A stretch of 60,613 nucleotides of DNA from positions 1 through 60,613 of the forward strand of contig JBPOHE010000007.1 of the NCBI GenBank assembly GCA_052035915.1. Reading direction: 5' to 3'. This DNA comes from Pseudomonadota bacterium. Lineage in GTDB: Bacteria > Pseudomonadota > Gammaproteobacteria > Chromatiales > Chromatiaceae. Shown in pieces: positions 11,304 through 51,702 of this stretch. How positions within the stretch are numbered: position 1 is the stretch's first letter; each line of letters begins with the position of its first letter. Position numbers and translations under genes: made by a program. The notes below the pieces were generated by a model. That model had not been told where the DNA came from. It saw only the letters and a program-made list of their open reading frames with translations, and searched no databases.

Positions 11304-11359
11304 TCTAACGCCTGCCTCAGCCGCGAGCGTAGCGAGTCGTCTGGAGGCGCATGTTAGGA
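11304..11359 (-). repeat. attC-like recombination-site candidate
   Basis: Minus-strand reading: TCCTAAC-ATGCGCCTCCAG...CTGAGGCAGGC-GTTAGAA. This has an inverse-core-like YYTAAC and a core-like GTTAGR, with imperfectly paired inner arms. It is 56 nt long and lies between the two TA cassettes. Confidence 0.5.
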
Positions 11360-11477
11360 AATTACGTGTATTCTCTGGTTGCATTCAGCGTCGTTGGATG
11401 TTGGGTTGGCGATACGGCCGCCAACCCAACCTATGGTGCTGGGTCCGAGTGAAAGCGCAGGTTAGCTTTCAAATTCA

Positions 11478-11729: not shown

Positions 11730-11932
11730 GAGCTGACATCAGTATCTATCTCGTTCAGTGCCTGATCAAAAGGGATTATCTCGTCGCTAGTGAGTTTAGC
11801 TTCGTCGTAAGCCTTTATGTCTTCGAGTTCCTCTATGGCGCTGAGGATTTCCCGCCATTCATTAATGGGTAAGACTACGGACTTAGGAGTCTGATTAGAG
11901 TCGACAATGTATTCTGGATGAAGAATGTTCAT
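11726..11932 (-). CDS. type II antitoxin (Phd/YefM-like by pattern)
   Basis: 68 aa: MNILHPEYIVDSNQTPKSVVLPINEWREILSAIEELEDIKAYDEAK... The ATGA overlap with the toxin start is present. Confidence 0.7.
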   Translation of the reverse strand: MNILHPEYIVDSNQTPKSVVLPINEWREILSAIEELEDIKAYDEAKLTSDEIIPFDQALNEIDTDVSS

Positions 11933-11984
11933 GGTGTGTACCTATTGTAACCACGCTTCGGATTTCGACTAGTTTAGTAGGTCG

Positions 11985-12040
11985 AAAAAACACAGTGTTG
12001 CCCGACATTTTATAGAAGATGTCGGGCACAGGTGCCCGAC
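11985..12040 (-). terminator. tandem hairpins plus T-run downstream of the two-gene operon
   Basis: On the minus strand, right after the TAG at 12041, come two hairpins. They are GTCGGGCAC-CT-GTGCCCGAC and TGCCCGACAT-cttctataaa-ATGTCGGGCA, followed by ACACTGTG-TTTTTT. Confidence 0.5.
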
Positions 12041-17689: not shown

Positions 17690-17932
17690 TCAGCGCGGCC
17701 GTTCGCGCCCCGCTTCCACCGGCTTGGACCAGAGCGCCTCACGCATCTGTAACTCCCCCGATTGCAGCCGCCGCGCCAGGGCCTCGGTATCGATGCGGCG
17801 CCAGCCGCCCACCGGGGCCATCTCTTCCTGACCGCTGGCGAGAAACAGCCCAATGGCGATCAGGTTGGCGAGAACGAAGCCGAGAAACCTGAATTCGCGC
17901 GGGCGGAGATGGCGCCAGAGAAGAGCTTTCAT
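17690..17932 (-). CDS. small single-pass membrane protein (80 aa)
   Basis: The ORF has a 4-nt overlap with the upstream giant gene. It has one hydrophobic helix (FLGFVLANLIAIGLFLA). No homology recognised. Confidence 0.5.
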   Translation of the reverse strand: MKALLWRHLRPREFRFLGFVLANLIAIGLFLASGQEEMAPVGGWRRIDTEALARRLQSGELQMREALWSKPVEAGRERPR

Positions 17933-21621: not shown

Positions 21622-21729
21622 GATCCCCTCCCCTTGCGGGAAAGTATGGCCCGTTCCGGCGGCTCTGGAAGAGACCGCGGGCCGGGAGGCTCCGTTCATG
21701 GCAAGCCTGTCGAACCACTCGTGGATCGT

Positions 21730-39337: not shown

Positions 39338-39790
39338 ATGTTTGGTTTCAAGGCCGCCGAATCCTATCAAAGCGAGCATTGCCTGTTGAAGAATGTGGGT
39401 GTCGCCTCATTCAACAAACAGCACCTCCGTCTCGCCAGTTATGCCGTGGAGTTCAACCAGATCGCCGAACAGCTCAAAGGCCGATCGCCGCGGCCCGAGG
39501 AATGGAAACAGATCGACGCCCTGTTCAGTCGCATCTCCATCTTCGTGGCGACGCACTTTCGCGAAGAAGAAGACATGATGGAAACCCATGCCTACCCAGG
39601 GTTTCCCGAACATAAACGCCAGCATGACCGATTCGTCGAAGAATTGGCGCGGATACAATCCCAAATCAACAACAGGAACGCGGATTTCAGGGGCCGCCTG
39701 GGCTCCCTGTTATGGGATTGGCTATACAAACATATCAACGAGACGGACTATCAGTATCGGGAATTCTTTCGCGAGAAAGGCGTTTCCTGA
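39338..39790 (+). CDS. bacteriohemerythrin-like protein
   Basis: Start trimmed to MFGFKAAESYQ. It has HFREEEDMME, FPEHKRQHDRFVEEL and WLYKHINETDYQY, the hemerythrin H/E/D iron-ligand motifs. Confidence 0.8.
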   Translation: MFGFKAAESYQSEHCLLKNVGVASFNKQHLRLASYAVEFNQIAEQLKGRSPRPEEWKQIDALFSRISIFVATHFREEEDMMETHAYPGFPEHKRQHDRFVEELARIQSQINNRNADFRGRLGSLLWDWLYKHINETDYQYREFFREKGVS

Positions 39791-39796
39791 TCCCGG

Positions 39797-40144
39797 GTGG
39801 ATGGAGTTCGACGGACGATGAAGATCGGCAACCGGCTCGGCATCGGCGTTATGGTCTGTCTTTTGGCGACCGCCCAGATGGAAGCAGGAGCCCCGGCAAG
39901 CGCGGCCTCCACCCAGGAGGTATTGAGCCCCTCCCCTGGCGAGATCTCGCTTCAGTCAGGCTCCCTGCCCTCATCGCCACCCACGACCGGTCTGCCGAGT
40001 GAACGGGGACCAGGTGTCAATCCTCCCAAGACCCTGACCAGCTTTTTTCTCATCGGCATCGTGCTCAACCTGTTGCTGGTGATCCTGGTGGGATCCTGGG
40101 CCTACAAACGTCTTCGCAAACCTCGAAGGCCGAACAATCCGTGA
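39797..40144 (+). CDS. small exported/anchored Pro/Ser-rich protein
   Basis: It has a signal-like segment (MKIGNRLGIGVMVCLLATAQMEA, alternative start 39818) and a C-terminal TM helix (FFLIGIVLNLLLVILVGSWAY). It has a 4-nt overlap with the SCO gene. Confidence 0.5.
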   Translation: MDGVRRTMKIGNRLGIGVMVCLLATAQMEAGAPASAASTQEVLSPSPGEISLQSGSLPSSPPTTGLPSERGPGVNPPKTLTSFFLIGIVLNLLLVILVGSWAYKRLRKPRRPNNP

Positions 40145-40776
40145 AACCAACGACGCTTCCGATCGGTACCCTGGCCGGGTTTCTACTCTGGGTTGGATTG
40201 CTGGGAGCCGCCCTGTTCTGGTGGAGTTCGGTAAGCCGACCCATCTCTCCTGAATTGAAACAGGTGCTGCGTAGCCAACCCCGGCTCTTGCAAGGCTTCT
40301 CCCTGGTTGATCAATACCAAAGACCCTTTACCGATGCCAATCTGCGGGGGAAATGGACCTTCCTGTTTTTCGGCTACACCTATTGTCCGGATATCTGCCC
40401 CACCACCCTCGGGACGCTCAAACAGAGCCTCGATCTGTTGCGTAAGACGCCCCAGGACGCGGACGATCTCCAGGTAGCCTTCGTATCCGTGGATCCGGAG
40501 CGCGACCGCACCGATGTATTGCGGAACTACATGGCCTATTTCGATAAAACCTTTATCGGTCTCACCGGACAACGCCAACAGATAGACAATCTGGTGGCCC
40601 AGACGGGGGCGGGATATATCAAGGAAGCGGAACAGACGCCAGGGAATTATTTGATCAGTCACAGCTCTTCGCTGTTTCTCATCAACCCGACCGGACAGCT
40701 GGTGGCGGTTTTCCCGCCACCACTCTATCCGGACTCGATCGCTTCACTCTACCGGGAGCTACGGGCCCATTATTGA
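40141..40776 (+). CDS. SCO1/SenC-family copper chaperone
   Basis: Thioredoxin-like fold with FGYTYCPDICPTTL (CxxxCP) and a downstream H in ISHSSSLFLI. Confidence 0.85.
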   Translation: MKPTTLPIGTLAGFLLWVGLLGAALFWWSSVSRPISPELKQVLRSQPRLLQGFSLVDQYQRPFTDANLRGKWTFLFFGYTYCPDICPTTLGTLKQSLDLLRKTPQDADDLQVAFVSVDPERDRTDVLRNYMAYFDKTFIGLTGQRQQIDNLVAQTGAGYIKEAEQTPGNYLISHSSSLFLINPTGQLVAVFPPPLYPDSIASLYRELRAHY

Positions 40777-40797: not shown

Positions 40798-41262
40798 TCA
40801 GTGGTGCCTGTGCTCGTGAGAATCTTCAGCACCTTTGCGGACTTCCACCATGAGGGGGATCGGGCGGCCCTCCTTGAACTCCAACTCCAGCGGGACAGTA
40901 TCACCCGCGACCAGGGCCTTTTGGGGCCGCATCAACATAAAATGATTACCACCCGGCTCGAACACCACCGTTTCGCCTGGGGGGATACGGATCTCATCCA
41001 GATGGAACATCTGTGCCATGTCATTCTGGATCCTTGTCCCATGCAACATGACATGACCAAAGAGCGGGCTGCTGGCACCGGTCAATATCCGCATGCCCTG
41101 ACCGGTATTCTGTATCTTCATATAAGCGGCCAGGGCCTCTGCTGTTGGGGGAGCTTCGCGTATCCATGGGTCCTGGATCCGAAGCGCGGCCTCTTCGGCC
41201 AGGAGCGGCGTCAGACTGGCCGCCATGACGATTCCAGCCAGAGCCCGAACCAAGGTGTTCAT
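40798..41262 (-). CDS. periplasmic copper chaperone PCu(A)C (DUF461)
   Basis: Signal peptide present. Met/His copper motifs in GHVMLHG...MAQMFH...GGNHFMLM, with a His-rich tail. Confidence 0.8.
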   Translation of the reverse strand: MNTLVRALAGIVMAASLTPLLAEEAALRIQDPWIREAPPTAEALAAYMKIQNTGQGMRILTGASSPLFGHVMLHGTRIQNDMAQMFHLDEIRIPPGETVVFEPGGNHFMLMRPQKALVAGDTVPLELEFKEGRPIPLMVEVRKGAEDSHEHRHH

Positions 41263-41408
41263 CTATTCATCTCCTGTTTTCATTGCCGCGGCAAAGCGGT
41301 TTCGCTATCACACAAACACAGCCAGAGGTTCGCCCAAACCTTCAACAAGGGTTTTTCTTTCTGGCCACCAGAAGCCTCTTGGATGGCGGCTACGACGAGA
41401 GAAGGGTT

Positions 41409-41825
41409 ATGGACAAGATAAGTCTGCTTCCACCACTCCAGGCGACGCTGAATATCCTGGCCACCGCACTCATGATCGCCGCCTATTATGCCATTCGCCG
41501 CAACCACCCATCCGCTCATCGGCTAGGCATGATCGGCGCCTTGATTACCTCGATCCTCTTCCTCGGCTCCTATCTCATCTATCATCATGAAGTCGGCTAT
41601 GTGCCCTTCACCGGTCAAGGGATCATGCGTCCTCTCTATTTCACTATTCTGTTCACCCATATCGCCACCGCCGCGGCCATCGTCCCCTTGGTGCTCATCA
41701 CCCTGTTTCACGCCCTGCGGGGACATACCCAGCAACATCGACGGATCGCCGCCTGGACCTTGCCGCTGTGGTTGTATACCTCCATCACCGGCGTCATGGT
41801 CTATATCCTGGTGTTTCGGCTTTAG
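41409..41825 (+). CDS. DUF420 membrane protein
   Basis: Start trimmed to MDKISLLPPLQATLNILATALMIAAYYAIRR. Four TM helices and HRRIAAWTLPLWLYTSITGVMVY match the DUF420 pattern, often found near haem-copper oxidase genes. Confidence 0.7.
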   Translation: MDKISLLPPLQATLNILATALMIAAYYAIRRNHPSAHRLGMIGALITSILFLGSYLIYHHEVGYVPFTGQGIMRPLYFTILFTHIATAAAIVPLVLITLFHALRGHTQQHRRIAAWTLPLWLYTSITGVMVYILVFRL

Positions 41826-42295: not shown

Positions 42296-42481
42296 TCAGT
42301 TCCGCAGCAGAAAGTGCAAGGCCTGGAAACTGGTCAGGGCCAAGACGAGGATGATCAGGAAAAACACCAGGCTGCGGTTTGGCAGCAAGGCGCCGCGTCG
42401 ACGCTCGATCAGATTGAGGATCCAGTCCGACAGGGCGTAGAGCAGCACCGCCACGACTGTGTAGGCGAGCATCTCCAGCAT
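42296..42481 (-). CDS. small two-helix membrane protein (61 aa)
   Basis: Start trimmed to MLEMLAYTVVAVLLYALSDW. It is the last gene of the minus-strand respiratory operon. No family recognised. Confidence 0.45.
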   Translation of the reverse strand: MLEMLAYTVVAVLLYALSDWILNLIERRRGALLPNRSLVFFLIILVLALTSFQALHFLLRN

Positions 42482-42503
42482 GGGGTCGATCTCTGTGGGT
42501 TGG

Positions 42504-43886
42504 TCAGTTTCCGGATTTTCCAGGCCACATCGCCTTGAAGCAGATGATGAGAAACAGCAGACCGCCGATGATGGCAATGAGGCCGCCAAGCCCCATCAAT
42601 CCCATGCCGAGGGTCTCCTGCAAGGTATGCAGCACCTGGGCGCTACCGGCGGTTTTGCGCTGTACCCCATAGCCGCCCGACCAGGCCAGACCGAGCACAT
42701 GGAGCAACTGCCCACTGCCGTAAATGATAGGCTGCCAGCGCACCATCCAGCCCTCCGGGCGGCGAAACCCAAGCCGCGGGAGCAGATGATAGGTCACCCC
42801 CATATAGGCCAGGGTGACGCTGACGATGGACCCATGGTAGTGGGCAGGCACCGTGACATTGGCGCCACTGATCAAGAAACCGATGATCCCGCCGGCGCCG
42901 AAGAGGATGATGGAAAACCAGAGCGCGTTGCGTTCCGGTGCCTGTTCCACTGGCGAACGCCCCGCCCGCGCCAGGGCCCAAAGAATGGCCAGTCCTATCG
43001 GCAGACTGGAGAGACCACCGCCGTACTGCATGAGCCAGGTGAGCCCAAGCATGTGGTAGGCCGAACCGATCTCGTACCTCAGGTACAGGGGCAGGATCAG
43101 GAGCACGGGCGCCGCGCCCAGGCCCAGTATCAGGATGGCGACCCGCGGGCTCAGCGGTGGTCGGGCCTGGGAGACCCAGGCCAGCCACAACCAGGCGACC
43201 AACATCAACTGGGTATGGGTGAACTGAATGGCATGGCCGCCACCCCAGAAAAGGACCTCGTAATATTGGGCACCGATCAAGGAGGACGGAGTCCCCTTAT
43301 AGGAGCCCGCCAAGGCCAGCAGGGCGATCAAAGCGGCGACTTGTCCGGTGATCAGGCCAAACCCCAGCGTCTTCTCTCCCGGACCAGCCATTGCCATGGA
43401 AGAGCGGCTGAACAGGGAATGCAGCACCAGGATCAGGAAACCAAGACCGAACAACCCGAGTCCGACGAAAAAGACCGGTGCCTGCAACACCGGCACATAG
43501 TTGTTCATCAAGGGACCACCGGCCCCGACGAATGGCGAGATCGAAATCACCCCGGCCCCGGCCACGGCCAGATAGAGGGCCCCACGACCGCAGGCCCGGC
43601 AGCGGTCGTTCAGGTTCAGACTCCACAACACCCCCGCAAAGGCCAGGAACCACACCAGTACGGTCAGATCCACATGCACCACCAAGGCGGTATGGAAAAA
43701 ATCCACCCAGGGGATGAGATCCTGAATCTTGGGTGTCCGTGACAAGACGATGAGAATAGTGAACACACCGCCGACCACCAGGGAGCCCAGGGCCAGCCAC
43801 AGCCAACCTATGGCCAGGGAACGAGGCTCCCCGGTGGGAACGCGGAGCACGAAGGCCCCATCAATGGCATCTGTTTGTTGGTTCAT
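42504..43886 (-). CDS. divergent haem-copper-oxidase subunit-I-like membrane protein (460 aa), no cognate subunit II
   Basis: About 12 TM helices. Candidate ligand histidines lie in FHTALVVHVDLTVLVWF, GGGHAIQFTHTQL and VPAHYHGSIV (an H-x-H as in HCO helix X). ATGA overlap with the upstream gene. Confidence 0.65.
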   Translation of the reverse strand: MNQQTDAIDGAFVLRVPTGEPRSLAIGWLWLALGSLVVGGVFTILIVLSRTPKIQDLIPWVDFFHTALVVHVDLTVLVWFLAFAGVLWSLNLNDRCRACGRGALYLAVAGAGVISISPFVGAGGPLMNNYVPVLQAPVFFVGLGLFGLGFLILVLHSLFSRSSMAMAGPGEKTLGFGLITGQVAALIALLALAGSYKGTPSSLIGAQYYEVLFWGGGHAIQFTHTQLMLVAWLWLAWVSQARPPLSPRVAILILGLGAAPVLLILPLYLRYEIGSAYHMLGLTWLMQYGGGLSSLPIGLAILWALARAGRSPVEQAPERNALWFSIILFGAGGIIGFLISGANVTVPAHYHGSIVSVTLAYMGVTYHLLPRLGFRRPEGWMVRWQPIIYGSGQLLHVLGLAWSGGYGVQRKTAGSAQVLHTLQETLGMGLMGLGGLIAIIGGLLFLIICFKAMWPGKSGN

Positions 43887-44383
43887 CGGAACAAGAATCC
43901 GTTTTCTGGGTTGAAGTCAATGACCAGGAGTTTTCCCACGAGCAGATCGGCCTGGTGTTCGGCGCTGTGGGTGAAGCCCTCGACCCGGCTGTTGTCGTTC
44001 ATCCGCACTTGAAAGGAATGCCGGCCCGCCGCTACCCGCAGGCTGCGAAAGATATCCACCGAGCCATCCTCGAACAATCCGGGTGACTTGGCAACCACCC
44101 GCAACAGGGGTTTCCCATCCATGAATAGCTCGACCTGAATGGGGGAGCGGGCGCGAGGACAATCGGTCGGTTTGCGCATGTTCGGCGGTAGTTTCGCCAA
44201 CTCCTCCGCCGTCAGGGTGCGACAGGGTTCCCGGGGCTGACCCGCATGGCCGAAGGCAAGGGTCACCTGCGCCTGGTCTCCTTCGAGATGGCGATAGGGC
44301 GGTGCGACGGAGAAATACCCCACCACGGCCATAAAGATGAAGTAATTCAGCGCCTGCAAGGGATAACGCCACCAACTAGACAT
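43883..44383 (-). CDS. hypothetical membrane-anchored protein (166 aa)
   Basis: Start trimmed to MSSWWRYPLQALNYFIFMAVVGYF (one TM helix). The rest is predicted beta-rich. It overlaps both neighbours (8 nt and 4 nt). Confidence 0.55.
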   Translation of the reverse strand: MSSWWRYPLQALNYFIFMAVVGYFSVAPPYRHLEGDQAQVTLAFGHAGQPREPCRTLTAEELAKLPPNMRKPTDCPRARSPIQVELFMDGKPLLRVVAKSPGLFEDGSVDIFRSLRVAAGRHSFQVRMNDNSRVEGFTHSAEHQADLLVGKLLVIDFNPENGFLFR

Positions 44384-45995
44384 GAGACTCTCCCTGGCGC
44401 TCCGGCGATGGCTCCTGGGCCTTGAGTTCGCGCAATGAGTCGCGGAAGGCATCGAGTTCGCGTTTGAGCCAAGCCCCATCGGACTCGGACGCCCCCTCCA
44501 TCCGCCAACGCCGCGGATCGACACGGTTGCGGAGCACAGGTTTGCGCATACCGGCGAGGCGCTTGCCCAACCATCTGTTGCCGAACCGGAAATAGCAATC
44601 CGCCGCGCGGCAACCGGAGACCAGAACGCCATCGGCCCCTTTCTTCAGCCCGTATTCGATCAGGGATGGGGGGACCATGCCGCTGCAAAAGAGGCTGAGG
44701 CCAACCGTGTCCGGGCCGTTGAAGCGGGTAACATCGAAGCCGTGTTCGCAGCCCAGGATCAGGATCCGAATCTCGCCCTGCAATCCGGCCAGGGCGGCGT
44801 CGGTTTGCCGGCGGATGTCGTGCAGCGGGAACTGAGGCATGTCAATGCCGGTTTTCAAGACCTGATCGGCGCGGCGTAGCGGATTGGATGACGGACAGGA
44901 CCCCATGCAGATACCGCAGGCGGCACATAACTGAGGGGATACCACCACCTCGTACTCCCAATGGGAGTTGTCGGTACGTTTTTGCAGCGTGATGGCGTCG
45001 AAGGGGCAGTCATCGAAGCACTGACCGCAGCCATTGCAGTGGTTGAGATCGACCACCGCCGCCGGCCCGGTGCGCTTGCGCGGCAGCCAGGGCATGAGCA
45101 TGAGCAACAGGGTGACGCTCGTGGTCAGGAGCCAGGTCTCCCCGGCCGTCCAATAATCCAGCAAGGGATAGACATTGAGATAGAACCAGTCCAGATGCAG
45201 GGTGGCGGGAACCCGGCTGAGGTCCGCCGGTTCGTGACTCACCGCCGGCATGACCAATGACAAGGCCAGCAAGCCGATGAAGCTGCCGATCGCCAGCCCC
45301 CGGGGCGGGTTGATGCTGACATGGGAGAGCCGCCGTACATGAAACCAGAGCATGAACACCAGGAACATGGGTTGTCCCAGGAGATGGAGAAAACCCATGA
45401 GGATGAAAAAGCGATCGTTCAGGTGGCCTTCGAGAAAATTGCGTGTCATGGCCTCGGGAAAGATGGGCACCGCGTCCATGAGCCGGGAGGAACCGATGGC
45501 GACATACTGGGCCAGCAGATCCCACACCAGCCAGTAGCCGGTGATCCCCAGCAGGATGATCATCCACAGGGTCGGGATGCCGGTAAACCAGGAGTACCAG
45601 CGGAAACCGCGATAACGGTCGAGGGCGAACTCGCGGAACAGATGCAGCAGGATGGTGACCACGGCGGCGTCCGAGGCATAGCGATGCAGGCTGCGCATCA
45701 CCCCCCCGGCGTACCACTGTCCATGGGTGATCTGCTGCACCGAGGCGTAGGCGCCATGGATGCTGCTATTGAAAAAGACGAAAAGATAGAGGCCACTGAT
45801 CAGCACCACCCACAAAAAGAAAAAGGTCAGGGTTCCCAGGTGATAGAGGGGGTTCCAGGCGGGGGTGAAGGAAAGATTGAACCAGTCTTCGAGGGCCAGA
45901 TAGCCCCGCTTGATGAGATTGAAGGGTTTCAAGGCGGTATCCTCGCGGGGTACGGCTGGGGGGATCGCGGTCGTCTTGTTATCGCACAACCTCAT
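44376..45995 (-). CDS. fusion protein: cytochrome b (bc-type N-terminal) + 2x[4Fe-4S] ferredoxin + MvhD/FlpD-like hydrogenase iron-sulfur domain
   Basis: The N-terminus is WNPLYHLGTLTFFFLW...MRSLHRYASDAAVVTILLHLFREF (bis-His haem-b helices). The middle is NHCNGCGQCFDDCPF and CAACGICMGSCPS. The C-terminus is ILILGCEHG...LFCSGMV...GADGVLVSGCRAADCYFRFGN (MvhD family pattern). Confidence 0.75.
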   Translation of the reverse strand: MRLCDNKTTAIPPAVPREDTALKPFNLIKRGYLALEDWFNLSFTPAWNPLYHLGTLTFFFLWVVLISGLYLFVFFNSSIHGAYASVQQITHGQWYAGGVMRSLHRYASDAAVVTILLHLFREFALDRYRGFRWYSWFTGIPTLWMIILLGITGYWLVWDLLAQYVAIGSSRLMDAVPIFPEAMTRNFLEGHLNDRFFILMGFLHLLGQPMFLVFMLWFHVRRLSHVSINPPRGLAIGSFIGLLALSLVMPAVSHEPADLSRVPATLHLDWFYLNVYPLLDYWTAGETWLLTTSVTLLLMLMPWLPRKRTGPAAVVDLNHCNGCGQCFDDCPFDAITLQKRTDNSHWEYEVVVSPQLCAACGICMGSCPSSNPLRRADQVLKTGIDMPQFPLHDIRRQTDAALAGLQGEIRILILGCEHGFDVTRFNGPDTVGLSLFCSGMVPPSLIEYGLKKGADGVLVSGCRAADCYFRFGNRWLGKRLAGMRKPVLRNRVDPRRWRMEGASESDGAWLKRELDAFRDSLRELKAQEPSPERQGESHV

Positions 45996-46016: not shown

Positions 46017-46850
46017 TCAATGCCCGGGCAGTCCTGGGCCGCGACGCCATTCCCGGACGACAAACCAAGCCGCCAAAATAAGGATGAAGCCGCCAATGAT
46101 CAGGCCAATGAACAGCGACAGATCCACATAATAGGCATCGCGGCTGGGATCGTAGGTGGTGCAGAAGAAACGGATGCGATTGAGAAGACTAGCCAGGAAG
46201 GGCTGGCCCGGCTTGGGCTGCCCAAGCACTAATTCCTTGAGCGGTTCCACCAACAGCGGGGTCTCGAACACCTCGCCATAGACCTGACGATAGATGCGCC
46301 CATCGGCGTCGATGACCGTGGCCTGGATGATATGGTCGAAGCCGCGCGGGGAATCCACATAGGTGAATCCCAGCTCCCGCATCAGAGCCTCCGCCGTGGC
46401 GCGATCAGCGCTCAAAAGCAGCCAATCCGCCCCGGCGATGCCCTGGTTCCTGGCGAACTGGCGCATGGATTCCGGGCTGTCGTGCAGGCTGTCGAAGCCC
46501 AGGGTGGCGACACGAAAACTCTCTTGGCCCAGGGCCTCCCTGGCTTTGGCGACTACTTTGGCCAGATGCTGGGTGGTCAGGGGACAGACATGGTAGCAAC
46601 TGGTATAGACCAAGCTGAGCACCAGGGGCTTGCCCTTCAGGCTTGACAAGGAAAGTCGGTCTTCCGCACCTGTAGTGAAGACGTAGTCCCCCAAGGATCG
46701 GCCGATCGCCTGCTGGCTAGCTTCCAGGGCTCGCTTGCTATCGAATTTGGTGGTGGTTTCCTGATGTCCGGTCCTCGACCAAGCCGGGAAAAGTATCGCG
46801 AGCCAGGCGAAGATCAGCGCGCAGGCGAGGAGAGGGAGCCGATACCTCAT
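46017..46850 (-). CDS. SCO1/SenC-family protein with C-terminal TM anchor
   Basis: Start trimmed to MRYRLPLLACALIFAWLAILF. CxxxCP is present in VYTSCYHVCPLTT. A C-terminal helix is LFIGLIIGGFILILAAWFVV. Confidence 0.8.
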   Translation of the reverse strand: MRYRLPLLACALIFAWLAILFPAWSRTGHQETTTKFDSKRALEASQQAIGRSLGDYVFTTGAEDRLSLSSLKGKPLVLSLVYTSCYHVCPLTTQHLAKVVAKAREALGQESFRVATLGFDSLHDSPESMRQFARNQGIAGADWLLLSADRATAEALMRELGFTYVDSPRGFDHIIQATVIDADGRIYRQVYGEVFETPLLVEPLKELVLGQPKPGQPFLASLLNRIRFFCTTYDPSRDAYYVDLSLFIGLIIGGFILILAAWFVVREWRRGPGLPGH

Positions 46851-46879: not shown

Positions 46880-47737
46880 TCAAGACACCAGCCAGGCGTC
46901 CAGGACAGCGCTTGTCAATAGACAGGTCAGTTGCACCAGGGAAGCAAAAAAACAACTCATCGCGGTCTTGGCGGTGGGATCCCTGACCAGTTGGAGATTT
47001 TTCTGTAGAAAATAGCCCCCACCGATCAGGGCGCCGGCCAGATAGATCCAACCGAGACCAAAGAAAAAGGGAAGAATGGAAAATGTCACCAGGACCAGGG
47101 TGTTGAGCAATACGGCCCGCGCTGCCCGCGCATTGCCCACCACCACCGGCAACATCGGAACCCCCGCAGCGACATAATCGTCGCGCTGGGCAATGGCCAG
47201 ACTCCAGAAATGGGAGGGGGTCCAGAAAAACAACACGATGGCGAGAAGGATAGGTACCGGACTGAGACTCGGGTCAACCGCCGCAGCCCCGGCGAGTACC
47301 GCAAAACTGCCGGATGCCCCACCGATGACGATGTTGAGCCAAGTCCGGCGTTTCAGCCAGACTGTATAGACGATCGCATAGAAAAACGCCCCGAGAAAGA
47401 TATAGAGGGCGGCCACGCCGTTCAGCAGCAGTGCGGCACCCAAAACTCCCATCGCCAGCAGCGCCATGATCAACATCAACCAGAAGGGCGTATGGGAGAA
47501 ACTCCCGGTCACGAAGGGGCGGTTGTGGGTCCGCCGCATCCGACTATCGATATCCAACTCATAATATTGGTTGAAGGCACCGGCACTGGCGGCCGCCATG
47601 AGTACCGTCAGGGCCAGGACAAGGGTGTGCCAGCCGCCAAGAGGTTCTCCCGGAGTCACCACCATGGCCGCAATCGCGGTAAAGGCCATGATGATACCGA
47701 TACGGAGTTTGAACAGATTGGTGAGCTGCTTGAGCAT
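46880..47737 (-). CDS. ctaB: protohaem IX farnesyltransferase (haem O synthase)
   Basis: Start trimmed to MLKQLTNLFKLRIGIIMAF. UbiA-family motifs are present: NQYYELDIDSRMRRTHNRPFVTG and a later Asp-rich loop. Confidence 0.85.
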   Translation of the reverse strand: MLKQLTNLFKLRIGIIMAFTAIAAMVVTPGEPLGGWHTLVLALTVLMAAASAGAFNQYYELDIDSRMRRTHNRPFVTGSFSHTPFWLMLIMALLAMGVLGAALLLNGVAALYIFLGAFFYAIVYTVWLKRRTWLNIVIGGASGSFAVLAGAAAVDPSLSPVPILLAIVLFFWTPSHFWSLAIAQRDDYVAAGVPMLPVVVGNARAARAVLLNTLVLVTFSILPFFFGLGWIYLAGALIGGGYFLQKNLQLVRDPTAKTAMSCFFASLVQLTCLLTSAVLDAWLVS

Positions 47738-47858: not shown

Positions 47859-49592
47859 CTATTTGAGTGGCCAGACGGCCGCCAGATAGTTCCAGTTGAT
47901 GAAATAATACAGCACAAAGGACACCAGCAAGACCATGGCGAGGGCAAAAGTACCAGGCGCTTCGAAACCCGCCGAGCCGTGCTGTTCCACCACCGGCCGG
48001 CTGGCCATGGGCAGTTGCTCCGGCTGCTCGAAGGTATAGACAGAAGCCGCAAGCGGCTTGCCGAAGCTCTGCAGCAACCCCGCGGAAGGCTCCAGCTTCT
48101 TGCCGAACACCAGCGAACCCACGGTGACGATGAGGTACATGGCGCCGCCGACCATCGCCAGGAGGGCACCGATTCCGGCGATACCCATCAGCACATAGGC
48201 GGTCCCCGGATACTTGAAGCCCAAAGGATTGCCCGCAAAGCCCATGTCCCAGTGGCGACGGGCCACTCCCAGGGTACCCGCGCCCATGAGGAACAAGGAC
48301 ACGATAGTCATGCCTAGACCGAAGACATAGGGCTGCCATTTCGCCACCGTGGGCAGGATCATCTGGCGACGGAACAAAACCGGGATCAGCAGGTAAGTCA
48401 GGGCCATGAAGGCCAGGGTGGTGCCTATAACGACCGTGGCATGGAAGTGGCCCGGTACATAGATGGTGTTGTGGATGATGATGTTGATCTGCTCGGTACC
48501 CATCACCACACCTGAGATGCCACCCAGGAAACCAAAACCTACCAGCGAGATGAACATGCCCGAGAACACCGGATTATCCCAGGGGGCCTTGCGCAACCAC
48601 TCGAACATACCCTTGGTGAATCCCTTGTGTCGCTGGGCCACCTCGATGGCGCCAGGGACGGTCAGGCCGTGGATCATGCTGGCCAGCACCGCCAGATACA
48701 TGGCATAGCTGGTGTTGAATACCTTCCACTCGGAGCTGATACCCGGATCCACCAGGATGTGGTGGGCGCAGGCCAGTTGCAGGAAGAGGATGTAGAGCAG
48801 ATAGGCCGAACGGCTGACCTTCTCCGACATGGGCCGGGCGCCGAAGACCACACCCGCGATCAGATACCACACGGCCACATGGGCGGCGACGTTGATCTGT
48901 TGGGAGGAGTGCCCGAGGCCCCACCAGATGACCCGGTACATCAGGGCGTCGATGTGGCCGATGTAGCCGATGGACCAGAGGAAGGTCGGGATCAGAATGA
49001 TCGCCCCCGAGGCGATGGTGAAGACGGCGATGATAGCCGCGGTGATGGCGCCGAAGGTCACAAGGGGCACCGAGCCCTGATAGGTGTTCTCATCCTTGGC
49101 GATGACCAGGGTGCCGAAGAACACAAACACAGCGATTAGCGCACCCACGGCGAACAAAATCAACCCGAGATAGAAGGTTGGCTGGGCGGGCATGGGCACA
49201 TAGGAAGTCATCATCACGCTGGAACCGCCCTGGAAGATGGTGACGAGGGTGGTGATGGAGCCTATTACCATGAGCGCGAAGCCGAGCCAAGCCCAGCGTG
49301 GTGTAGCCAGGCGGCAGCGCAACAGGGTCGAGGAGGCGAAATAGAGGATGGCTATTTCGAAAAAGATGATCCAGAAGATGAGCGCGCCGATGCCATGGGC
49401 GGTCAGCACCATATAGAAGGAGTCCGCCGGCAAAAGATGCACCGCCGGCCATCTGGTCAGGGCGACCAGCACCCCGAGCACACCAGAGATCAAGAGGCTC
49501 ACCGCGGCGGCGACCGCGTTGACCTTCATCAGGCTCTCGGCGGACTTATGGAAATACAGCCCTGAGGATGGGCAAACCCGAAACTCTGCCAT
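47859..49592 (-). CDS. haem-copper oxidase subunit I (B/ba3-like or NOR-like family)
   Basis: 577 aa, about 13 TM helices, with HFHATVVIGT (H-x-H helix X) and a CuB region IWWGLGHSSQQINVAAH. The Tyr found 4 residues after the CuB His in A/B-type oxidases (GHPxVY) is replaced by Q. Confidence 0.8.
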   Translation of the reverse strand: MAEFRVCPSSGLYFHKSAESLMKVNAVAAAVSLLISGVLGVLVALTRWPAVHLLPADSFYMVLTAHGIGALIFWIIFFEIAILYFASSTLLRCRLATPRWAWLGFALMVIGSITTLVTIFQGGSSVMMTSYVPMPAQPTFYLGLILFAVGALIAVFVFFGTLVIAKDENTYQGSVPLVTFGAITAAIIAVFTIASGAIILIPTFLWSIGYIGHIDALMYRVIWWGLGHSSQQINVAAHVAVWYLIAGVVFGARPMSEKVSRSAYLLYILFLQLACAHHILVDPGISSEWKVFNTSYAMYLAVLASMIHGLTVPGAIEVAQRHKGFTKGMFEWLRKAPWDNPVFSGMFISLVGFGFLGGISGVVMGTEQINIIIHNTIYVPGHFHATVVIGTTLAFMALTYLLIPVLFRRQMILPTVAKWQPYVFGLGMTIVSLFLMGAGTLGVARRHWDMGFAGNPLGFKYPGTAYVLMGIAGIGALLAMVGGAMYLIVTVGSLVFGKKLEPSAGLLQSFGKPLAASVYTFEQPEQLPMASRPVVEQHGSAGFEAPGTFALAMVLLVSFVLYYFINWNYLAAVWPLK

Positions 49593-49598
49593 AGATGC

Positions 49599-50135
49599 TT
49601 ACTCCTTGACGTAGATCTTGCCCAGCATGGTGTGGTGCAAGATGCCGCAATATTCGTTACAGACGATGGTGTACTCGCCCGCCTGGTCCGGGGTCACCGT
49701 CATGACCATCTCGTAGCCCGGCAGGACCTGCACATTGATGTTGACGGGTTGCAGGGAGAAGCCGTGCTGCCAATCCATCGACGAAAGATGAAGCCGGTAG
49801 CTCTTGTTCTTTTTCAGTTCAAGCATCGGATACCATTGCCAGAGCCGGCCCAACATATAGACATCGCTGTCCGCGGGTGGAGCGACCACGGGTAACCCCG
49901 CCTCATCTCTCACCTTATGGTCCTTGACCATGGCCTCCACCTTGGCCAGGTGTTTGGCCGGTGTGGTCTGATAGGCCTCGTTGGACAGATTCTGCTTACC
50001 GTAAAGGTGCCAGTAGGGCATCATGAGGAACATGATCAGGCACCAGACTACCGCCAACAGGATCCAGACGATTTCGGTCTTGCCGACCGGTTCTTTCCAC
50101 CAGATGCGTTCGGCCGGTGGTGTAAAGCTGCTCAT
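49599..50135 (-). CDS. haem-copper oxidase subunit II with CuA site
   Basis: 178 aa with one N-terminal TM helix and a cupredoxin domain carrying CNEYCGILHHTM (C-x-E-x-C-G-x-x-H-x-x-M). Confidence 0.85.
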   Translation of the reverse strand: MSSFTPPAERIWWKEPVGKTEIVWILLAVVWCLIMFLMMPYWHLYGKQNLSNEAYQTTPAKHLAKVEAMVKDHKVRDEAGLPVVAPPADSDVYMLGRLWQWYPMLELKKNKSYRLHLSSMDWQHGFSLQPVNINVQVLPGYEMVMTVTPDQAGEYTIVCNEYCGILHHTMLGKIYVKE

Positions 50136-50156: not shown

Positions 50157-50345
50157 TTATGGCGTAACGGGCAGGGTGACGATCTCCATGATCCCCCACA
50201 GGATGTAGAACACCGTCGGCATCACCACACCGATAAAAAGGAGCAAAAAAGGGTTATCTATCAACTTCTGCATAGCAGGAATCTTTTCCCGCTTTTCTGG
50301 GTTTGTTCTGGATGCAACATTTGGAGTCGGTTCTCCCATAGACAT
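50157..50345 (-). CDS. small single-helix oxidase-associated protein (subunit IIa-like)
   Basis: The hydrophobic core is FLLLFIGVVMPTVFYILWGIMEIV. The likely true start is the internal ATG at 50273 (MQKLIDNPF). Assigned by position upstream of subunit II. Confidence 0.5.
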   Translation of the reverse strand: MSMGEPTPNVASRTNPEKREKIPAMQKLIDNPFLLLFIGVVMPTVFYILWGIMEIVTLPVTP

Positions 50346-50649: not shown

Positions 50650-51702
50650 ATGTCCGTGACCGAAACTGCTGCAAATAGAACGGTTGCCCTCTGGTTGTTG
50701 ATCTGCTGTGCCGCCATCTTCGCCATGGTGGTGCTGGGAGGGGTGACGCGGTTGACGGGCTCCGGGCTCTCCATCGTACGCTGGGAACCCATCACCGGGG
50801 TGCTGCCGCCCCTGAACGAAACCGCCTGGGAACAGGTATTCCAGCTCTATCAGCAATCGCCGGAATATCGGCTGAAGAACCGGGGGATGTCGCTCGAGGG
50901 CTTCAAAACCATCTTCTGGTTCGAATACGCCCACCGCCTGCTCGGCCGGCTGATTGGGGTCATCTTTCTCGTCCCCCTGATCTTTTTCGTGATCCGCAAG
51001 CAGCTGAACCGCTCGCTCATCCCCAAGCTGGTCCTGATGTTCGTGCTCGGTGGGCTGCAGGGCCTGCTCGGCTGGTATATGGTGATGAGCGGACTGGTCA
51101 ATGATCCCCACGTGAGCCAATACCGCCTGACCGCCCACCTCGGGCTCGCCCTTCTCATTTATTCTTATATGTTCTGGGTGGCGTTGGATCTGTTGTTTCC
51201 CGACACCGGTCACATCCAAAAAAGGGGGGCAACGGCAGGCCTGATCGTCTTGCTGGTGTTTCTGACCGCCCTTTCCGGTGGTTTCGTCGCCGGCACCCGG
51301 GCGGGTCTGGCCTACAACACCTTCCCCTTGATGGACGGCCAATGGGTTCCTGGGGGAATGTTCACCCTGACTCCCCTGTGGAGCAACTTGTTCGAGAATG
51401 TCACCACGGTGCAGTTCGACCACCGCCTGCTGGCCACCCTGCTGTTCTTGGTCATCCCGGCGTTCTGGTGGCGCGCCCGCCGACAGCCGCTCGCACCCCG
51501 GGTCCAGATCGGGCTCCATGTCCTGCTCATGACCCTATTCCTACAGCTCGGGCTGGGCATCTCCACGCTGCTGCTCCGGGTGCCGGTGGCCCTGGGAACG
51601 GCGCATCAGGGCGGTGCCGTGTTGTTGCTGACCGCGGCCCTGTTCGTCTGGCATCGAATGCGTCGGGAGCCTCTCCAGCAGCCGATCTCAGGATTTGTCT
51701 AG
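50650..51702 (+). CDS. ctaA: haem A synthase (COX15/CtaA)
   Basis: 350 aa and 8 TM helices, with LGGVTRLTGSGLSIVRWEP, EYAHRLLGR and VQFDHRLLA (conserved His pairs). Confidence 0.85.
   Translation: MSVTETAANRTVALWLLICCAAIFAMVVLGGVTRLTGSGLSIVRWEPITGVLPPLNETAWEQVFQLYQQSPEYRLKNRGMSLEGFKTIFWFEYAHRLLGRLIGVIFLVPLIFFVIRKQLNRSLIPKLVLMFVLGGLQGLLGWYMVMSGLVNDPHVSQYRLTAHLGLALLIYSYMFWVALDLLFPDTGHIQKRGATAGLIVLLVFLTALSGGFVAGTRAGLAYNTFPLMDGQWVPGGMFTLTPLWSNLFENVTTVQFDHRLLATLLFLVIPAFWWRARRQPLAPRVQIGLHVLLMTLFLQLGLGISTLLLRVPVALGTAHQGGAVLLLTAALFVWHRMRREPLQQPISGFV

What the first reader, a model, noticed from the sequence alone, without database searches (positions are those of the whole stretch)
42296..45995. Four-gene module: cytochrome b/2x[4Fe-4S]/MvhD fusion, anchored beta-rich protein, orphan HCO-subunit-I-like protein, and a 61-aa membrane peptide
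The genes are tightly coupled, with 8-nt and 4-nt overlaps. The first protein fuses a bc-type cytochrome b N-terminal domain to two ferredoxin-type clusters and an MvhD/FlpD-like domain. That domain is normally associated with heterodisulfide reductase and hydrogenase electron transfer. The third protein has about 12 TM helices and a histidine pattern reminiscent of haem-copper oxidases (…VVHVD…, GGGHAIQFTH, AHYHG). It has no CuA subunit or cytochrome c partner. The arrangement suggests an undescribed quinol- or Fe-S-fed reductase of the HCO superfamily acting on O2, NO or another small oxidant. It sits directly downstream of a conventional oxidase and its maturation genes.
Basis: partly seen in the sequence, partly recalled or inferred. 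Interest (0 to 1): 0.6.

Follow-up and report, generated by a model that had tools for sequence, protein, structure and literature searches.

The report
Accessory genes of an NO-reductase island
The four genes are real and conserved, but they are not a stand-alone oxidase: they are the undescribed accessory half of a nitric-oxide-reductase-type gene island of sulfur-oxidising bacteria, and include an oxidase-like protein that keeps its haem sites but has lost part of its copper site.

Summary
In detail: four same-strand genes with 8-nt and 4-nt overlaps and the stated domains.

**G3 (the HCO-like protein).** It has the HCO subunit-I fold and is a 29%-identical paralogue of the neighbouring subunit I. 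It keeps 5 of the 6 canonical histidines. The first helix-VII CuB histidine is Tyr277, the catalytic Tyr is Phe222, and no cupredoxin subunit is encoded. Across the wider family only the helix-VI CuB histidine and the three haem histidines are invariant.

**The upstream "conventional oxidase".** It is a B-family enzyme without the catalytic Tyr, so it is sNOR-type.

**The module is not autonomous.**
- In 80 loci selected by G1, G2 follows G1 in 66/67. A long SenC precedes G1 in 57/60, and the sNOR-type operon lies upstream in 36/37.
- G3 is within 8-10 kb in only 13/24 of those loci.
- G4 sits downstream of G3 on the same strand in only 5/80 loci.
- nirS or nirK lies within 10 kb in about half of the long loci.
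- Distant G3 relatives pair with haem A or haem O synthase genes.

**Best reading (about 0.4).** G1-G4 form an accessory electron-transfer and cofactor-maintenance module of the sNOR-type enzyme.

**Main rival (about 0.3).** G1 feeds G3, which acts as a haem-only NO/O2 reductase.

I found no description of these genes in the literature I could search.

The parts
44376..45995 (-). G1: six-TM bc-type di-haem cytochrome b, fused to a cytoplasmic 2x[4Fe-4S] ferredoxin domain and an MvhD/FlpD-like [2Fe-2S] domain. The start is probably TTG at 45932.
   Evidence: Pfam and NCBIfam. Alignment A4: invariant H104/H118 and H204/H219; D269-W270-x-Y272 in place of PEWY; two CxxCxxCxxxCP motifs; C416, C437, C462 and C467. 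Six TM helices place the Fe-S part in the cytoplasm (inference from cytochrome b topology).
43883..44383 (-). G2: TM-anchored beta-sandwich protein, probably periplasmic, of an unnamed family. It is the constant partner of G1.
42504..43886 (-). G3: 12-TM HCO subunit-I paralogue with intact haem sites and a degenerate CuB site.
   Evidence: BLASTP against the neighbouring subunit I gives 2e-30 at 29% identity. hhalign gives prob 99.7 and E 9.5e-26, with ligand mapping H71, H218, Y277(!), H278, H349, H351. Family-wide conservation. Fold.
42296..42481 (-). G4: conserved 61-aa two-TM peptide that moves around within the island.
   Evidence: Alignment A5, 43-66% identity, with invariant T8, Y15, E26, G30 and R36. 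Placement: same strand after G3 in 5/80 loci, next to DUF420 in 42, upstream of norS in 15.
50157..50345 (-). Small one-TM ORF upstream of subunit II. The product is probably 38 aa from Met25. It is a candidate small subunit, like CbaC or ba3 subunit IIa.
   Evidence: ORF list. A comparable 46-aa peptide is reported in Bacillus sNOR clusters (PMC3475470). Homology was not tested.
49599..50135 (-). NorS-like subunit II with an intact CuA site.
   Evidence: Pfam COX2. H124, C159, C163, H167 and M170 are invariant in 84/84 orthologues next to G1.
47859..49592 (-). NorY-like subunit I. It is B-family derived, has all six histidines, and lacks the cross-linked Tyr (sNOR-type).
   Evidence: Pfam COX1 1e-59. 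The best PDB match is T. thermophilus ba3 at 1e-41, with Y237 aligned to Q232.
46880..47737 (-). CtaB, haem O synthase.
   Evidence: Pfam UbiA 1.2e-51. The start was read from the sequence.
46017..46850 (-). Long-form SCO1/SenC with a C-terminal TM helix. It lies directly upstream of G1.
   Evidence: Pfam SCO1-SenC. Directly upstream of G1 in 57/60 loci.
50650..51702 (+). CtaA, haem A synthase, divergent from the operon.
   Evidence: Pfam COX15-CtaA 1.4e-108.
41283..41825 (+). DUF420 (CtaM-like oxidase assembly protein), convergent with G4.
   Evidence: Pfam DUF420 1.9e-36. Conserved neighbour.
40798..41262 (-). PCuAC copper chaperone.
   Evidence: Pfam PCuAC 5.4e-34.
40141..40776 (+). Second SCO1/SenC copper chaperone. 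In other genomes it directly precedes G3.
   Evidence: Pfam 1.4e-40. Synteny.
39338..39790 (+). Hemerythrin-domain protein, a conserved neighbour.
   Evidence: Pfam Hemerythrin 1.4e-10. Synteny.

Best explanation
**What it is (well supported).** 42296-45995 is the distal part of one conserved gene island of about 12 kb (39.3-51.7 kb). The island is built around a B-family haem-copper enzyme that lacks the catalytic tyrosine, so it is sNOR-type and a putative NO reductase. The gene order is: small peptide, norS, norY, ctaB, senC, G1, G2, G3, G4. ctaA lies on one side. DUF420/CtaM, PCuAC, SCO and a hemerythrin lie on the other.
- G1-G2 are core members of that operon.
- G3 is a diverged paralogue of norY. 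It keeps both haem sites but not a complete CuB site, the Tyr, the sNOR-type channel residues or a subunit II.
- G4 is a small membrane protein with no fixed place in the island.

**How it most likely works (inferred).** G1-G4 are accessory proteins that make or keep the sNOR-type enzyme active. They are not a second oxidase.
- G1 is a transmembrane electron conduit. On the periplasmic side it has a Qo-like quinol site and haem bL. Haem bH connects to a cytoplasmic relay of 2x[4Fe-4S] plus an MvhD [2Fe-2S].
- G1 would supply or poise electrons at the periplasmic face for G2 and the adjacent long SenC, keeping Cu and thiols reduced for CuA/CuB loading. It would do the same for haem-binding HCO-fold proteins in the membrane. 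This parallels what CcoG, NosR and NapH are thought to do for cbb3 oxidase, N2O reductase and Nap.
- G3 binds haem o/a made by CtaB/CtaA in subunit-I-like pockets. It would act as a haem-handling scaffold or redox partner, not as a Cu-dependent catalyst.
For: **Shown**
- G1-selected loci: G2 follows G1 in 66/67, SenC precedes it in 57/60, the sNOR-type operon lies upstream in 36/37, and G3 is within 8-10 kb in only 13/24.
- The CuA ligands of NorS are invariant in 84/84 orthologues, so G1 does not replace the normal electron entry.
- Every gene of known function around G1-G4, apart from norS and norY, is a biogenesis gene: ctaA, ctaB, senC, SCO, PCuAC and DUF420.
- In G3 the first helix-VII CuB histidine is Tyr277 and the catalytic Tyr is Phe222. 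The sNOR-invariant residues Y243, T294, S295, Y296 and H308 have no counterpart.
- In 138 family representatives H71, H218, H349, H351, W214, Q221 and R410-K411 are invariant or nearly so (>=134/138). The H278 position is His in only 35/138, and 36/138 have no His anywhere in that region.
- Links between G3 and haem synthases: a G3::CtaB fusion; ctaA divergently adjacent to distant G3 relatives with no other HCO nearby (L055, L167-170, L172); ctaA-SCO-G3 on one strand (L033, L039, L077); ctaB-G1-G3-ctaA in L076.
- Four family representatives carry C-terminal TPR domains.

**Inferred**
- The direction of electron flow, the clients of G1 and G2, and haem handling by G3.
Against: - No HCO subunit-I-like assembly factor is known.
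- G3 keeps both haem sites, the Arg/Lys propionate anchors and many invariant polar TM residues. It is 58-77% identical across families, which looks like an enzyme.
- One contig encodes a cytochrome-b::G3 fusion next to nirS. G1-G3 overlap by 4 nt in L076. G1-G2-G3 occur with no sNOR within 9 kb in L084. These are most simply read as donor plus reductase.
- NirK-CtaB-SCO-G3 (L002) has no other HCO in the 16.5 kb held for that locus (5 kb upstream to the contig end, 10 kb downstream), so G3 looks like the client of those biogenesis genes.
- The conserved D-W-x-Y Qo-like motif suggests real quinol chemistry.
- G2 has no recognisable redox cofactor site.
- The locus sets are the 80 best matches from MAG and metagenome contigs, so they are biased.
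Confidence: 0.4

Rival explanations
1. A modified form of the first reader's idea. G1 and G3, with or without G2, form a new respiratory or detoxifying reductase without subunit II. Quinol is oxidised at the Qo-like site of G1, or electrons enter through the cytoplasmic Fe-S/MvhD relay. They pass haem-to-haem inside the membrane to the low-spin haem of G3. They then reduce NO (or O2) at a haem-only or copper-poor site lined by H218, Q221 and, in this clade, H278.
For: - A cytochrome-b::G3 fusion lies next to nirS (L164).
- Translational coupling: G1-G2-G3 in the window and G1-G3 in L076.
- G1-G2 lie directly upstream of G3 in 35/63 loci.
- G1-G2-G3 occur without sNOR nearby in L084.
- NirK-CtaB-SCO-G3 in L002, and nir d1 genes next to ctaA|G3-SCO in L055.
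- The haem ligands, the propionate-binding R410-K411 and W214 are invariant or nearly so.
- The D-W-x-Y motif and the four haem-b histidines of G1 are conserved.
- Cofactor genes often cluster with their client enzyme, as cyoE does with cyoABCD (established knowledge).
Against: - The second-metal site is not conserved in the family. The positions of both helix-VII histidines vary.
- There is no Tyr and no counterpart of the sNOR channel residues.
- G1-G2 are far more tightly tied to the sNOR-type operon than to G3.
- G3 often occurs with no G1 at all, as in the Beggiatoaceae loci and the ctaA-paired loci.
- TPR fusions are atypical for a catalytic subunit I.
Confidence: 0.3
2. G1-G2 are a dedicated quinol-dehydrogenase input module for the sNOR-type enzyme itself, functionally like NapGH, NosGH or a Rieske-less bc complex. 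G3 is an alternative subunit-I isoform that can pair with NorS, as orphan CcoN isosubunits do in Pseudomonas aeruginosa.
For: - G1-G2 co-occur almost always with norS-norY.
- nir genes are adjacent in about half of the long loci.
- G1 has a Qo-like motif.
- G3 is the closest paralogue of NorY.
- Some CuA-type NORs are reported to take electrons from both quinol and cytochrome c (PMC3475470).
Against: - G2 shows no cupredoxin fold or cofactor motif that could carry electrons from a Qo site to CuA.
- There is no Rieske or cytochrome c gene in the cluster.
- CuA is fully retained.
- G3 lacks a complete CuB site, so it cannot be an equivalent isoform.
- This model leaves the cytoplasmic Fe-S/MvhD domain without a role.
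Confidence: 0.15
3. G3 is a non-catalytic haem-based sensor, a NO/O2-binding sink, or a decaying paralogue. G1-G2 act independently of it.
For: - The catalytic site is degenerate.
- G3 occurs alone among unrelated genes in Beggiatoaceae and other loci.
- Other accessory membrane haem proteins of unknown function, such as NnrS, exist in nir-nor regulons (own knowledge).
Against: - Purifying selection is strong over more than 6000 sequences.
- G3 is repeatedly linked physically to ctaA, ctaB, SCO and G1.
- No signalling domain is attached.
Confidence: 0.1

Closest known systems
sNOR (norS-norY-senC cluster; B-family-derived putative NO reductase; Stein 2007, Murali et al. 2024, PMC11214002)
   Same: - The genes directly upstream (49599-50135 and 47859-49592) fit it. 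They encode a CuA subunit II and a subunit I closest to ba3, with six histidines and no catalytic Tyr. senC follows, and a small peptide precedes.
- G3 is a paralogue of this subunit I (E 2e-30).
   Different: - Descriptions of sNOR clusters that I could read mention a small peptide, senC and a six-TM membrane protein. They do not mention a cytochrome b/Fe-S/MvhD fusion, G2 or a second subunit-I-like gene.
- G3 itself lacks a CuB histidine and a subunit II.
- Classification with the authors' sNOR HMMs was not possible.
gNOR (Murali et al. 2024): an HCO family with one active-site His replaced
   Same: It is related to the B family, has one CuB histidine replaced, has no CuA, has no Tyr, and is found mainly in sulfidic habitats.
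   Different: - gNOR has a conserved Asp at that position and a cupredoxin-fold subunit II.
- In G3 the position is variable: Tyr here, Asp in 6/21 close homologues, Glu in 62/138 representatives. Family-wide the second helix-VII His is also lost.
- The adjacent G2 is not cupredoxin-like, and G3 often stands alone.
Cytochrome b of bc1/b6f-type complexes (closest NCBIfam models: ExtP/ExtQ, cytochrome b6)
   Same: The four haem histidines have the H-x13-H and H-x14-H spacing. Helices E and F are present, with a D-W-x-Y motif where PEWY/PDWY sits.
   Different: - No Rieske or cytochrome c1/f partner is encoded.
- The C-terminus carries Fe-S and MvhD domains.
- All scores are far below the equivalog cut-offs (85 bits against 290 for ExtP).
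C-terminal ferredoxin plus MvhD module of HdrA2, and MvhD of Mvh-Hdr complexes
   Same: The domain order is the same, 2x[4Fe-4S] then MvhD. NCBIfam HdrA2 positions 571-775 match at 1.1e-25, and the four cysteines are conserved.
   Different: - The HdrA flavoprotein part is missing.
- No hdr or hydrogenase gene was seen in the parts of the window examined.
- The module is tethered to a membrane cytochrome b.
CcoG, NosR and NapH: membrane Fe-S accessory proteins of cbb3 oxidase, N2O reductase and Nap
   Same: TM helices plus a cytoplasmic 2x[4Fe-4S] domain. They are encoded with a Cu or haem respiratory enzyme and its chaperones, and they are needed to make or keep that enzyme active (own knowledge). 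CcoG also carries an Ig-like domain, which recalls G2.
   Different: There is no sequence homology to the membrane part. G1 uses a bc-type di-haem cytochrome b and adds MvhD. The analogy is functional only and was not tested.
Orphan CcoN isosubunits of Pseudomonas aeruginosa cbb3 oxidases
   Same: An extra subunit-I gene without its own partner subunits, encoded near or apart from a complete oxidase operon (own knowledge).
   Different: Orphan CcoN keeps the full catalytic site. G3 does not.

Membership tests
Haem-copper oxidoreductase superfamily, subunit I (for G3) | 12-TM subunit I core fold | tested here: met
Haem-copper oxidoreductase superfamily, subunit I (for G3) | Bis-His ligands of the low-spin haem (helices II and X) and the proximal His of the high-spin haem (helix X) | tested here: met
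   H71, H351 and H349 align to H66, H384 and H382 of the neighbouring subunit I. They are present in 136-137 of 138 representatives.
Haem-copper oxidoreductase superfamily, subunit I (for G3) | Three His ligands of CuB/FeB (one on helix VI, two on helix VII) | tested here: not met
   H218 and H278 are present, but the first helix-VII His is Tyr277. That position varies in 21 close homologues. Family-wide, H278 is His in 35/138, and 36/138 have no His in the region.
Haem-copper oxidoreductase superfamily, O2 reductases (for G3) | Cross-linked His-Tyr cofactor | tested here: not met
   Phe222 sits at His+4 and is invariant in close homologues. Across representatives the position is F in 107/138 and Y in 11/138.
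Haem-copper oxidoreductase superfamily (for G3) | Partner subunit II (cupredoxin with or without CuA) or a cytochrome c subunit | tested here: not met
sNOR (for the upstream enzyme, 47859-50135) | B-family relationship, CuA subunit II, six histidines, no catalytic Tyr, senC in the cluster | tested here: met
   ba3 is the best PDB match at 1e-41, with Y237 aligned to Q232. The CuA ligands are invariant. senC follows. Placement with the published sNOR-specific HMMs or tree was not possible.
sNOR (for G3) | Same features as above | tested here: not met
   No subunit II, one CuB histidine missing, and the sNOR-invariant residues Y243, T294, S295, Y296 and H308 absent.
gNOR (for G3) | Conserved Asp replacing one CuB His, and a cupredoxin-fold subunit II without CuA | tested here: not met
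   Residue 277 is Tyr here. It is Asp in 6/21 close homologues and 6/138 representatives. There is no cupredoxin partner.
bc-type cytochrome b (for the G1 N-terminal domain) | Four His ligands for haems bL and bH on helices B and D | tested here: met
   H104/H118 and H204/H219 are invariant. Pfam Cytochrome_B at 53.9 bits, above the 27.2 cut-off.
bc-type cytochrome b (for the G1 N-terminal domain) | Qo-site PEWY/PDWY motif together with a Rieske Fe-S partner | tested here: inconclusive
   D269, W270 and Y272 are invariant at the aligned position, as LDWF/YY. No Rieske gene lies in the cluster. Quinol binding cannot be tested here.
MvhD/FlpD (for the G1 C-terminal domain) | FlpD fold with the [2Fe-2S] cysteines | tested here: met
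   Pfam FlpD at 56.9 bits, above the 22.3 cut-off. C416, C437, C462 and C467 are conserved.
MvhD/FlpD (for the G1 C-terminal domain) | Association with HdrA-type flavoprotein or hydrogenase genes | tested here: not met
   None was found in the island or among the larger ORFs of the window that were scanned. The window was not scanned exhaustively.

The most novel reading that the evidence does not exclude
G1 is a Rieske-less, cytochrome-c-less quinol oxidase module that splits the two electrons of quinol. One electron goes to a high-potential haem(-copper) NO/O2 reductase of HCO fold in the membrane: G3, which would then be a copper-free catalytic HCO family, and/or NorY. The other crosses the membrane through haems bL and bH into the cytoplasmic [4Fe-4S]/[4Fe-4S]/[2Fe-2S] MvhD wire. 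This would be a quinone-based electron bifurcation. It would let sulfur-oxidising denitrifiers make low-potential reductant for CO2 fixation directly from NO or O2 reduction.
Probability: 0.08. Interest if true: 0.92.

Novelty: new variant of a known kind. Interest (0 to 1): 0.6.

Why it matters
sNOR-type enzymes are proposed to be major but biochemically unverified N2O sources. How they receive electrons and how they are assembled is unknown.

This analysis makes three points.
- In sulfur-oxidising Gamma- and Betaproteobacteria, sNOR-type enzymes almost always come with an undescribed cytochrome b/Fe-S/MvhD fusion and an unnamed periplasmic beta-sandwich protein. They are often embedded in nirS/nirK clusters.
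- A large family of subunit-I-like proteins is mis-annotated. It has more than 6000 sequence clusters and occurs in at least 589 species, and is currently labelled "cytochrome c oxidase subunit I" or "cbb3-type". It keeps the haem sites but not the CuB site, and it travels with haem O and haem A synthase genes.
- Either outcome would be new. One possibility is a new assembly and maintenance system for haem-copper enzymes. The other is a copper-poor HCO catalyst fed by a cytochrome b.

There is also a practical consequence. Counting these genes as oxidases or NORs in metagenome surveys is unsafe.

Tried and rejected
- **PDB sequence searches with G3.** Searching as a single sequence and as a 21-sequence profile gave no hit at E<=1. 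Ligand mapping therefore used profile-profile alignment to the neighbouring subunit I.
- **NCBIfam.** It gave nothing for G2, G3 or G4.
- **G3 as Murali's "N2O red" family.** I rejected this. That family sits on the cNOR/C-family branch, whereas the closest sequence relative of G3 is the B-derived NorY-like protein.
- **G3 as gNOR.** I considered this seriously. The defining Asp and the cupredoxin subunit are not met.
- **G1 as a replacement for the CuA entry route.** I rejected this because CuA is invariant.
- **Literature.** Seven full-text searches found no description of the fusion protein, G2 or the G3 family. The supplement of PMC11214002 and the 2022 BBA paper on quinol oxidation in HCOs are not held.
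- **Promoter and terminator scan.** It was uninformative.
- **Inverted repeats around G4.** Only a 10-nt pair was found, which is not convincing as an inversion signal.
- **The cytochrome b::G3 "fusion".** It rests on a single 3.9-kb contig. An internal Met lies where a separate G3 would start, so a lost stop codon cannot be excluded.

Full report
**1. The observation.** The minus strand carries four tightly packed ORFs.
- G1 is 45995..44376. G2 is 44383..43883, and its ATG overlaps the G1 stop by 8 nt.
- G3 is 43886..42504, with a 4-nt ATGA overlap onto G2. G4 is 42481..42296, after a 22-nt gap.
- Homologues of G1 are 513-522 aa and begin MK(S/P)FN. A TTG at 45932 is therefore the likelier start.
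- Pfam confirms Cytochrome_B, Fer4-type and FlpD/MvhD domains in G1, and COX1 (42.9 bits, cut-off 34.8) in G3. It finds nothing for G2 or G4.

**2. Anatomy of G1.** The 22-sequence alignment shows the following.
- Four invariant haem histidines: H104/H118 with x13 spacing and H204/H219 with x14 spacing.
- An invariant D269-W270-x-Y272 where bc-type cytochromes b have PEWY/PDWY.
- Two CxxCxxCxxxCP motifs and four conserved cysteines in the MvhD part.
- The membrane part corresponds to helices A-F of cytochrome b. NCBIfam ExtP matches residues 50-223 and ExtQ matches 240-310. By the known topology the Fe-S/MvhD part is therefore cytoplasmic (inference).
- The ferredoxin-plus-MvhD order is that of the HdrA2 C-terminus (1.1e-25).
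- NCBI names homologues "hydrogenase iron-sulfur subunit".

**3. Anatomy of G2 and G4.**
- G2 is an N-terminal TM helix plus a beta-sandwich (pLDDT 90.9).
- No Pfam family appears for any of 28 members, even at E<=5.
- Invariant residues are H46, C54, C75, H122, M128 and the LPPNMR and CPRxRSP loops.
- The charge distribution around the TM helix favours a periplasmic domain, so C54-C75 is probably a disulfide (inference).
- G4 is a genuine conserved two-TM peptide.

**4. Anatomy of G3.**
- The AF2 model (pTM 0.85) has 12 TM helices.
- Sequence searches of the PDB find nothing.
- G3 is nevertheless clearly a paralogue of the subunit I encoded 4 kb upstream: BLASTP 2e-30 at 29% identity, and hhalign prob 99.7 with E 9.5e-26 over 429 columns.

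The hhalign alignment maps the ligands as follows.

| G3 residue | Neighbouring subunit I | Role |
|---|---|---|
| H71 | H66 | low-spin haem |
| H218 | H228 | CuB, helix VI |
| Y277 | H277 | CuB, first helix-VII His: lost |
| H278 | H278 | CuB, second helix-VII His |
| H349 | H382 | high-spin haem |
| H351 | H384 | low-spin haem |

- G3 therefore has five of the six histidines.
- Position 277 is Y/D/N/Q/K/E/L/G/M/R among 21 homologues of 58-76% identity.
- The Tyr position is an invariant Phe222.
- The polar residues that are invariant in the sNOR-type family (Y243, T294, S295, Y296, H308) have no counterpart in G3.

**5. The wider G3 family.**
- An exhaustive HMMER search finds 595 cluster representatives (50% identity clusters) at E<1e-30, and 1458 at E<=1e-3.
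- The 90%-identity collection holds more than 6000 hits.
- At least 589 GTDB species carry the gene. They are mostly sulfur-oxidising Gammaproteobacteria: Sedimenticolaceae, Chromatiaceae, Beggiatoaceae, Arenicellales, Thiohalobacter, Thiogranum and Acidiferrobacteraceae. Some Betaproteobacteria carry it too, including the cultured Noviherbaspirillum sp. ST 5-3.
- In 138 representatives, W214 and H218 are invariant, and H71, H349, H351, Q221, N129, Y130, M286, R410 and K411 are conserved in at least 134.
- The H278 position is His in only 35/138 (F 36, Y 36). 36/138 have no His anywhere in that region, and only 13/138 have HH.
- The family as a whole therefore keeps two haem sites but not a canonical second-metal site.
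- Fusions occur with a G1-like cytochrome b (P0123), with haem O synthase (P0259), and with C-terminal TPR domains in four representatives.

**6. The neighbours in the window.**
- Upstream on the same strand lie a small one-TM ORF, a CuA subunit II, a 577-aa subunit I, CtaB and a long SenC.
- The subunit I is closest to T. thermophilus ba3 (1e-41). It has all six histidines, but Gln232 sits where ba3 has Tyr237.
- By the criterion of Murali et al. (PMC11214002) it is NOR-type, and the cluster layout is that of sNOR. It is not a "conventional oxidase".
- CtaA is divergent from the operon. DUF420 (CtaM-like), PCuAC, a second SCO and a hemerythrin lie just beyond G4.

**7. Synteny.** I used two independent locus sets.

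(a) 80 GTDB loci selected by G3:
- G1-G2 lie directly upstream of G3 in 35/63 evaluable loci.
- With both flanks at least 8 kb long, G1 is present in 31/33 and the sNOR-type subunit I in 30/33.
- In about ten loci G1-G2 stay at the end of the sNOR-type operon while G3 lies apart, behind ctaA and an SCO gene on the other strand.

(b) 80 metagenome loci selected by G1:
- G2 lies directly downstream in 66/67.
- SenC lies directly upstream in 57/60.
- The sNOR-type subunit I lies upstream on the same strand in 36/37.
- G3 lies directly after G2 in only 13/45, and anywhere within 8-10 kb in 13/24.

G4 lies on the same strand after G3 in 5 of 80 loci that have it. It is next to DUF420 in 42 and upstream of norS in 15.

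The conserved unit is therefore norS-norY-(ctaB)-senC-G1-G2. G3 is a frequent optional addition, and G4 has no fixed position. The CuA ligands of NorS are invariant in 84/84 copies, so G1 does not replace the normal electron entry.

**8. Other informative contexts.**
- nirS, the haem d1 genes or nirK lie within 10 kb in 15/35 (G3-selected) and 14/24 (G1-selected) loci of at least 18 kb.
- The cytochrome-b::G3 fusion is followed by nirS.
- L002 reads NirK-CtaB-SCO-G3.
- L055 reads nirF-nirDL-nirGH-nirJ | ctaA | G3-SCO.
- L076 is an aa3-type cluster reading ctaB-G1-G3-ctaA, with a 4-nt G1/G3 overlap and no G2. L049 has two G1-G2 pairs before G3-SCO. L084 has G1-G2-G3 with no sNOR-type gene within 9 kb.
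- Distant family members (35-43% identity) sit divergently next to ctaA among housekeeping genes, with no G1, G2 or other HCO.
- In Beggiatoaceae G3 stands alone.
- In a second clade a hemerythrin gene directly follows G2.

**9. Interpretation.** Firmly established:
- The four genes are the distal part of an sNOR-type island that often belongs to nir-nor clusters.
- G1-G2 are core members of that island.
- G3 is a haem-retaining, CuB-degenerate paralogue tied to ctaA, ctaB and SCO.

The mechanism is inferred. I weigh two models.

*Accessory or maintenance model (about 0.4).* Everything of known function around G1-G4 is a biogenesis factor. G3 has lost the catalytic features but not the haem pockets. 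The CtaB and TPR fusions and the ctaA pairing fit haem handling. G1, together with periplasmic G2 and always next to SenC, resembles membrane Fe-S helpers such as CcoG, NosR and NapH (functional analogy, own knowledge).

*Reductase model (about 0.3).* The cytochrome b fusion, the translational coupling, the occurrences without sNOR, the NirK-CtaB-SCO-G3 cluster, the conserved Qo-like motif and the strong conservation of G3 fit a quinol- or Fe-S-fed, haem-only NO/O2 reductase.

Two minor rivals remain. One is a quinol input module for sNOR, with G3 as an isoform (0.15). The other is a sensor or relic (0.1).

**10. Comparison with what is known.**
- The closest described concept for G3 is gNOR. 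It is B-related, has one CuB His replaced, has no CuA, and occurs in sulfidic habitats. Its defining Asp and cupredoxin subunit are not met here.
- The "N2O red" family is excluded because it lies on the cNOR branch.
- I found no paper describing the G1 fusion, G2 or the G3 family. Supplementary data of the key paper and the 2022 BBA paper are not held, so prior mention cannot be ruled out.

**11. Verdict.**
- Observation: confirmed.
- Interpretation: partly supported.
- Novelty: a new variant within the HCO world, together with an undescribed partner pair.
- Interest: 0.6.
- Caveats: both locus sets are similarity-ranked samples of MAG and metagenome contigs. Model coordinates could not be inspected. 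No experiment exists.

Noticed in passing
window 47859-50135 (-): The "conventional oxidase" upstream is a B-family enzyme. Its CuA site is intact, but Gln232 sits where ba3 has the cross-linked Tyr237. It is therefore an sNOR-type putative NO reductase rather than an O2 reductase.
   Followed up: yes
window 50157-50345 (-): A small one-TM ORF lies 21 nt upstream of subunit II. The product is probably 38 aa from Met25 (MQKLIDNPFLLLFIGVVMPTVFYILWGIMEIVTLPVTP). It may be a small subunit like ba3 subunit IIa or Bacillus CbaC.
   Followed up: partly
window 17929-21699 (-): A 1256-aa ORF combines a spermine/spermidine-synthase-like domain with FMN_bind and Fer4_5 domains, an architecture like NosR/NapH. 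The segment is unusually G+C-rich (0.68) with strong AT skew (0.285).
   Followed up: no
window about 10000-14100: A low-G+C segment (0.43-0.51, against about 0.60 elsewhere). It carries two overlapping minus-strand ORFs (12041-13159 and 13152-14102) with no Pfam match. It may have been acquired horizontally.
   Followed up: no
window 6293-8425 (-): A 710-aa ORF with DinB_2, FGE-sulfatase and methyltransferase domains. This is the domain order of OvoA-type sulfoxide synthases of ovothiol biosynthesis (own knowledge).
   Followed up: no
window 42296-42481, compared with L006, L008, L037, L058 and others: G4 is on the same strand as G3 here. In most relatives it is on the opposite strand behind DUF420, or it lies upstream of norS. 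A perfect 10-nt inverted repeat (42320-42329 / 42517-42526) brackets most of the gene, but it is too short to argue for an inversion.
   Followed up: partly
L134, L136, L140, L142, L147, L150 (after G2); L065, L079 (between G1 and G2): In a second clade of the island a hemerythrin-domain gene directly follows G2 or sits between G1 and G2. In the window's clade it lies a few kb away (39338-39790). The link with a di-iron NO/O2-binding protein is conserved but unexplained.
   Followed up: partly
L049 338-6730; L076 2050-10044: L049 carries two tandem G1-G2 pairs before G3-SCO. L076 has ctaB-G1-G3-ctaA, with a 4-nt G1/G3 overlap and no G2, inside an aa3-type (A-family) oxidase cluster.
   Followed up: partly
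L169/L170 6702-9383; L172 6558-9121; L167/L168; L055 7710-10201: Distant members of the G3 family are divergently paired with the haem A synthase gene ctaA. The surrounding genes are housekeeping genes, with no other oxidase subunit, G1 or G2 nearby.
   Followed up: partly
window 46017-46850 (-): The SenC directly upstream of G1 is a long form (277 aa) with an extra C-terminal TM helix. It scores much lower on the SCO1 profile (1.8e-10) than the second SCO of the island (1.4e-40). This long form accompanies G1 in 57/60 loci.
   Followed up: partly
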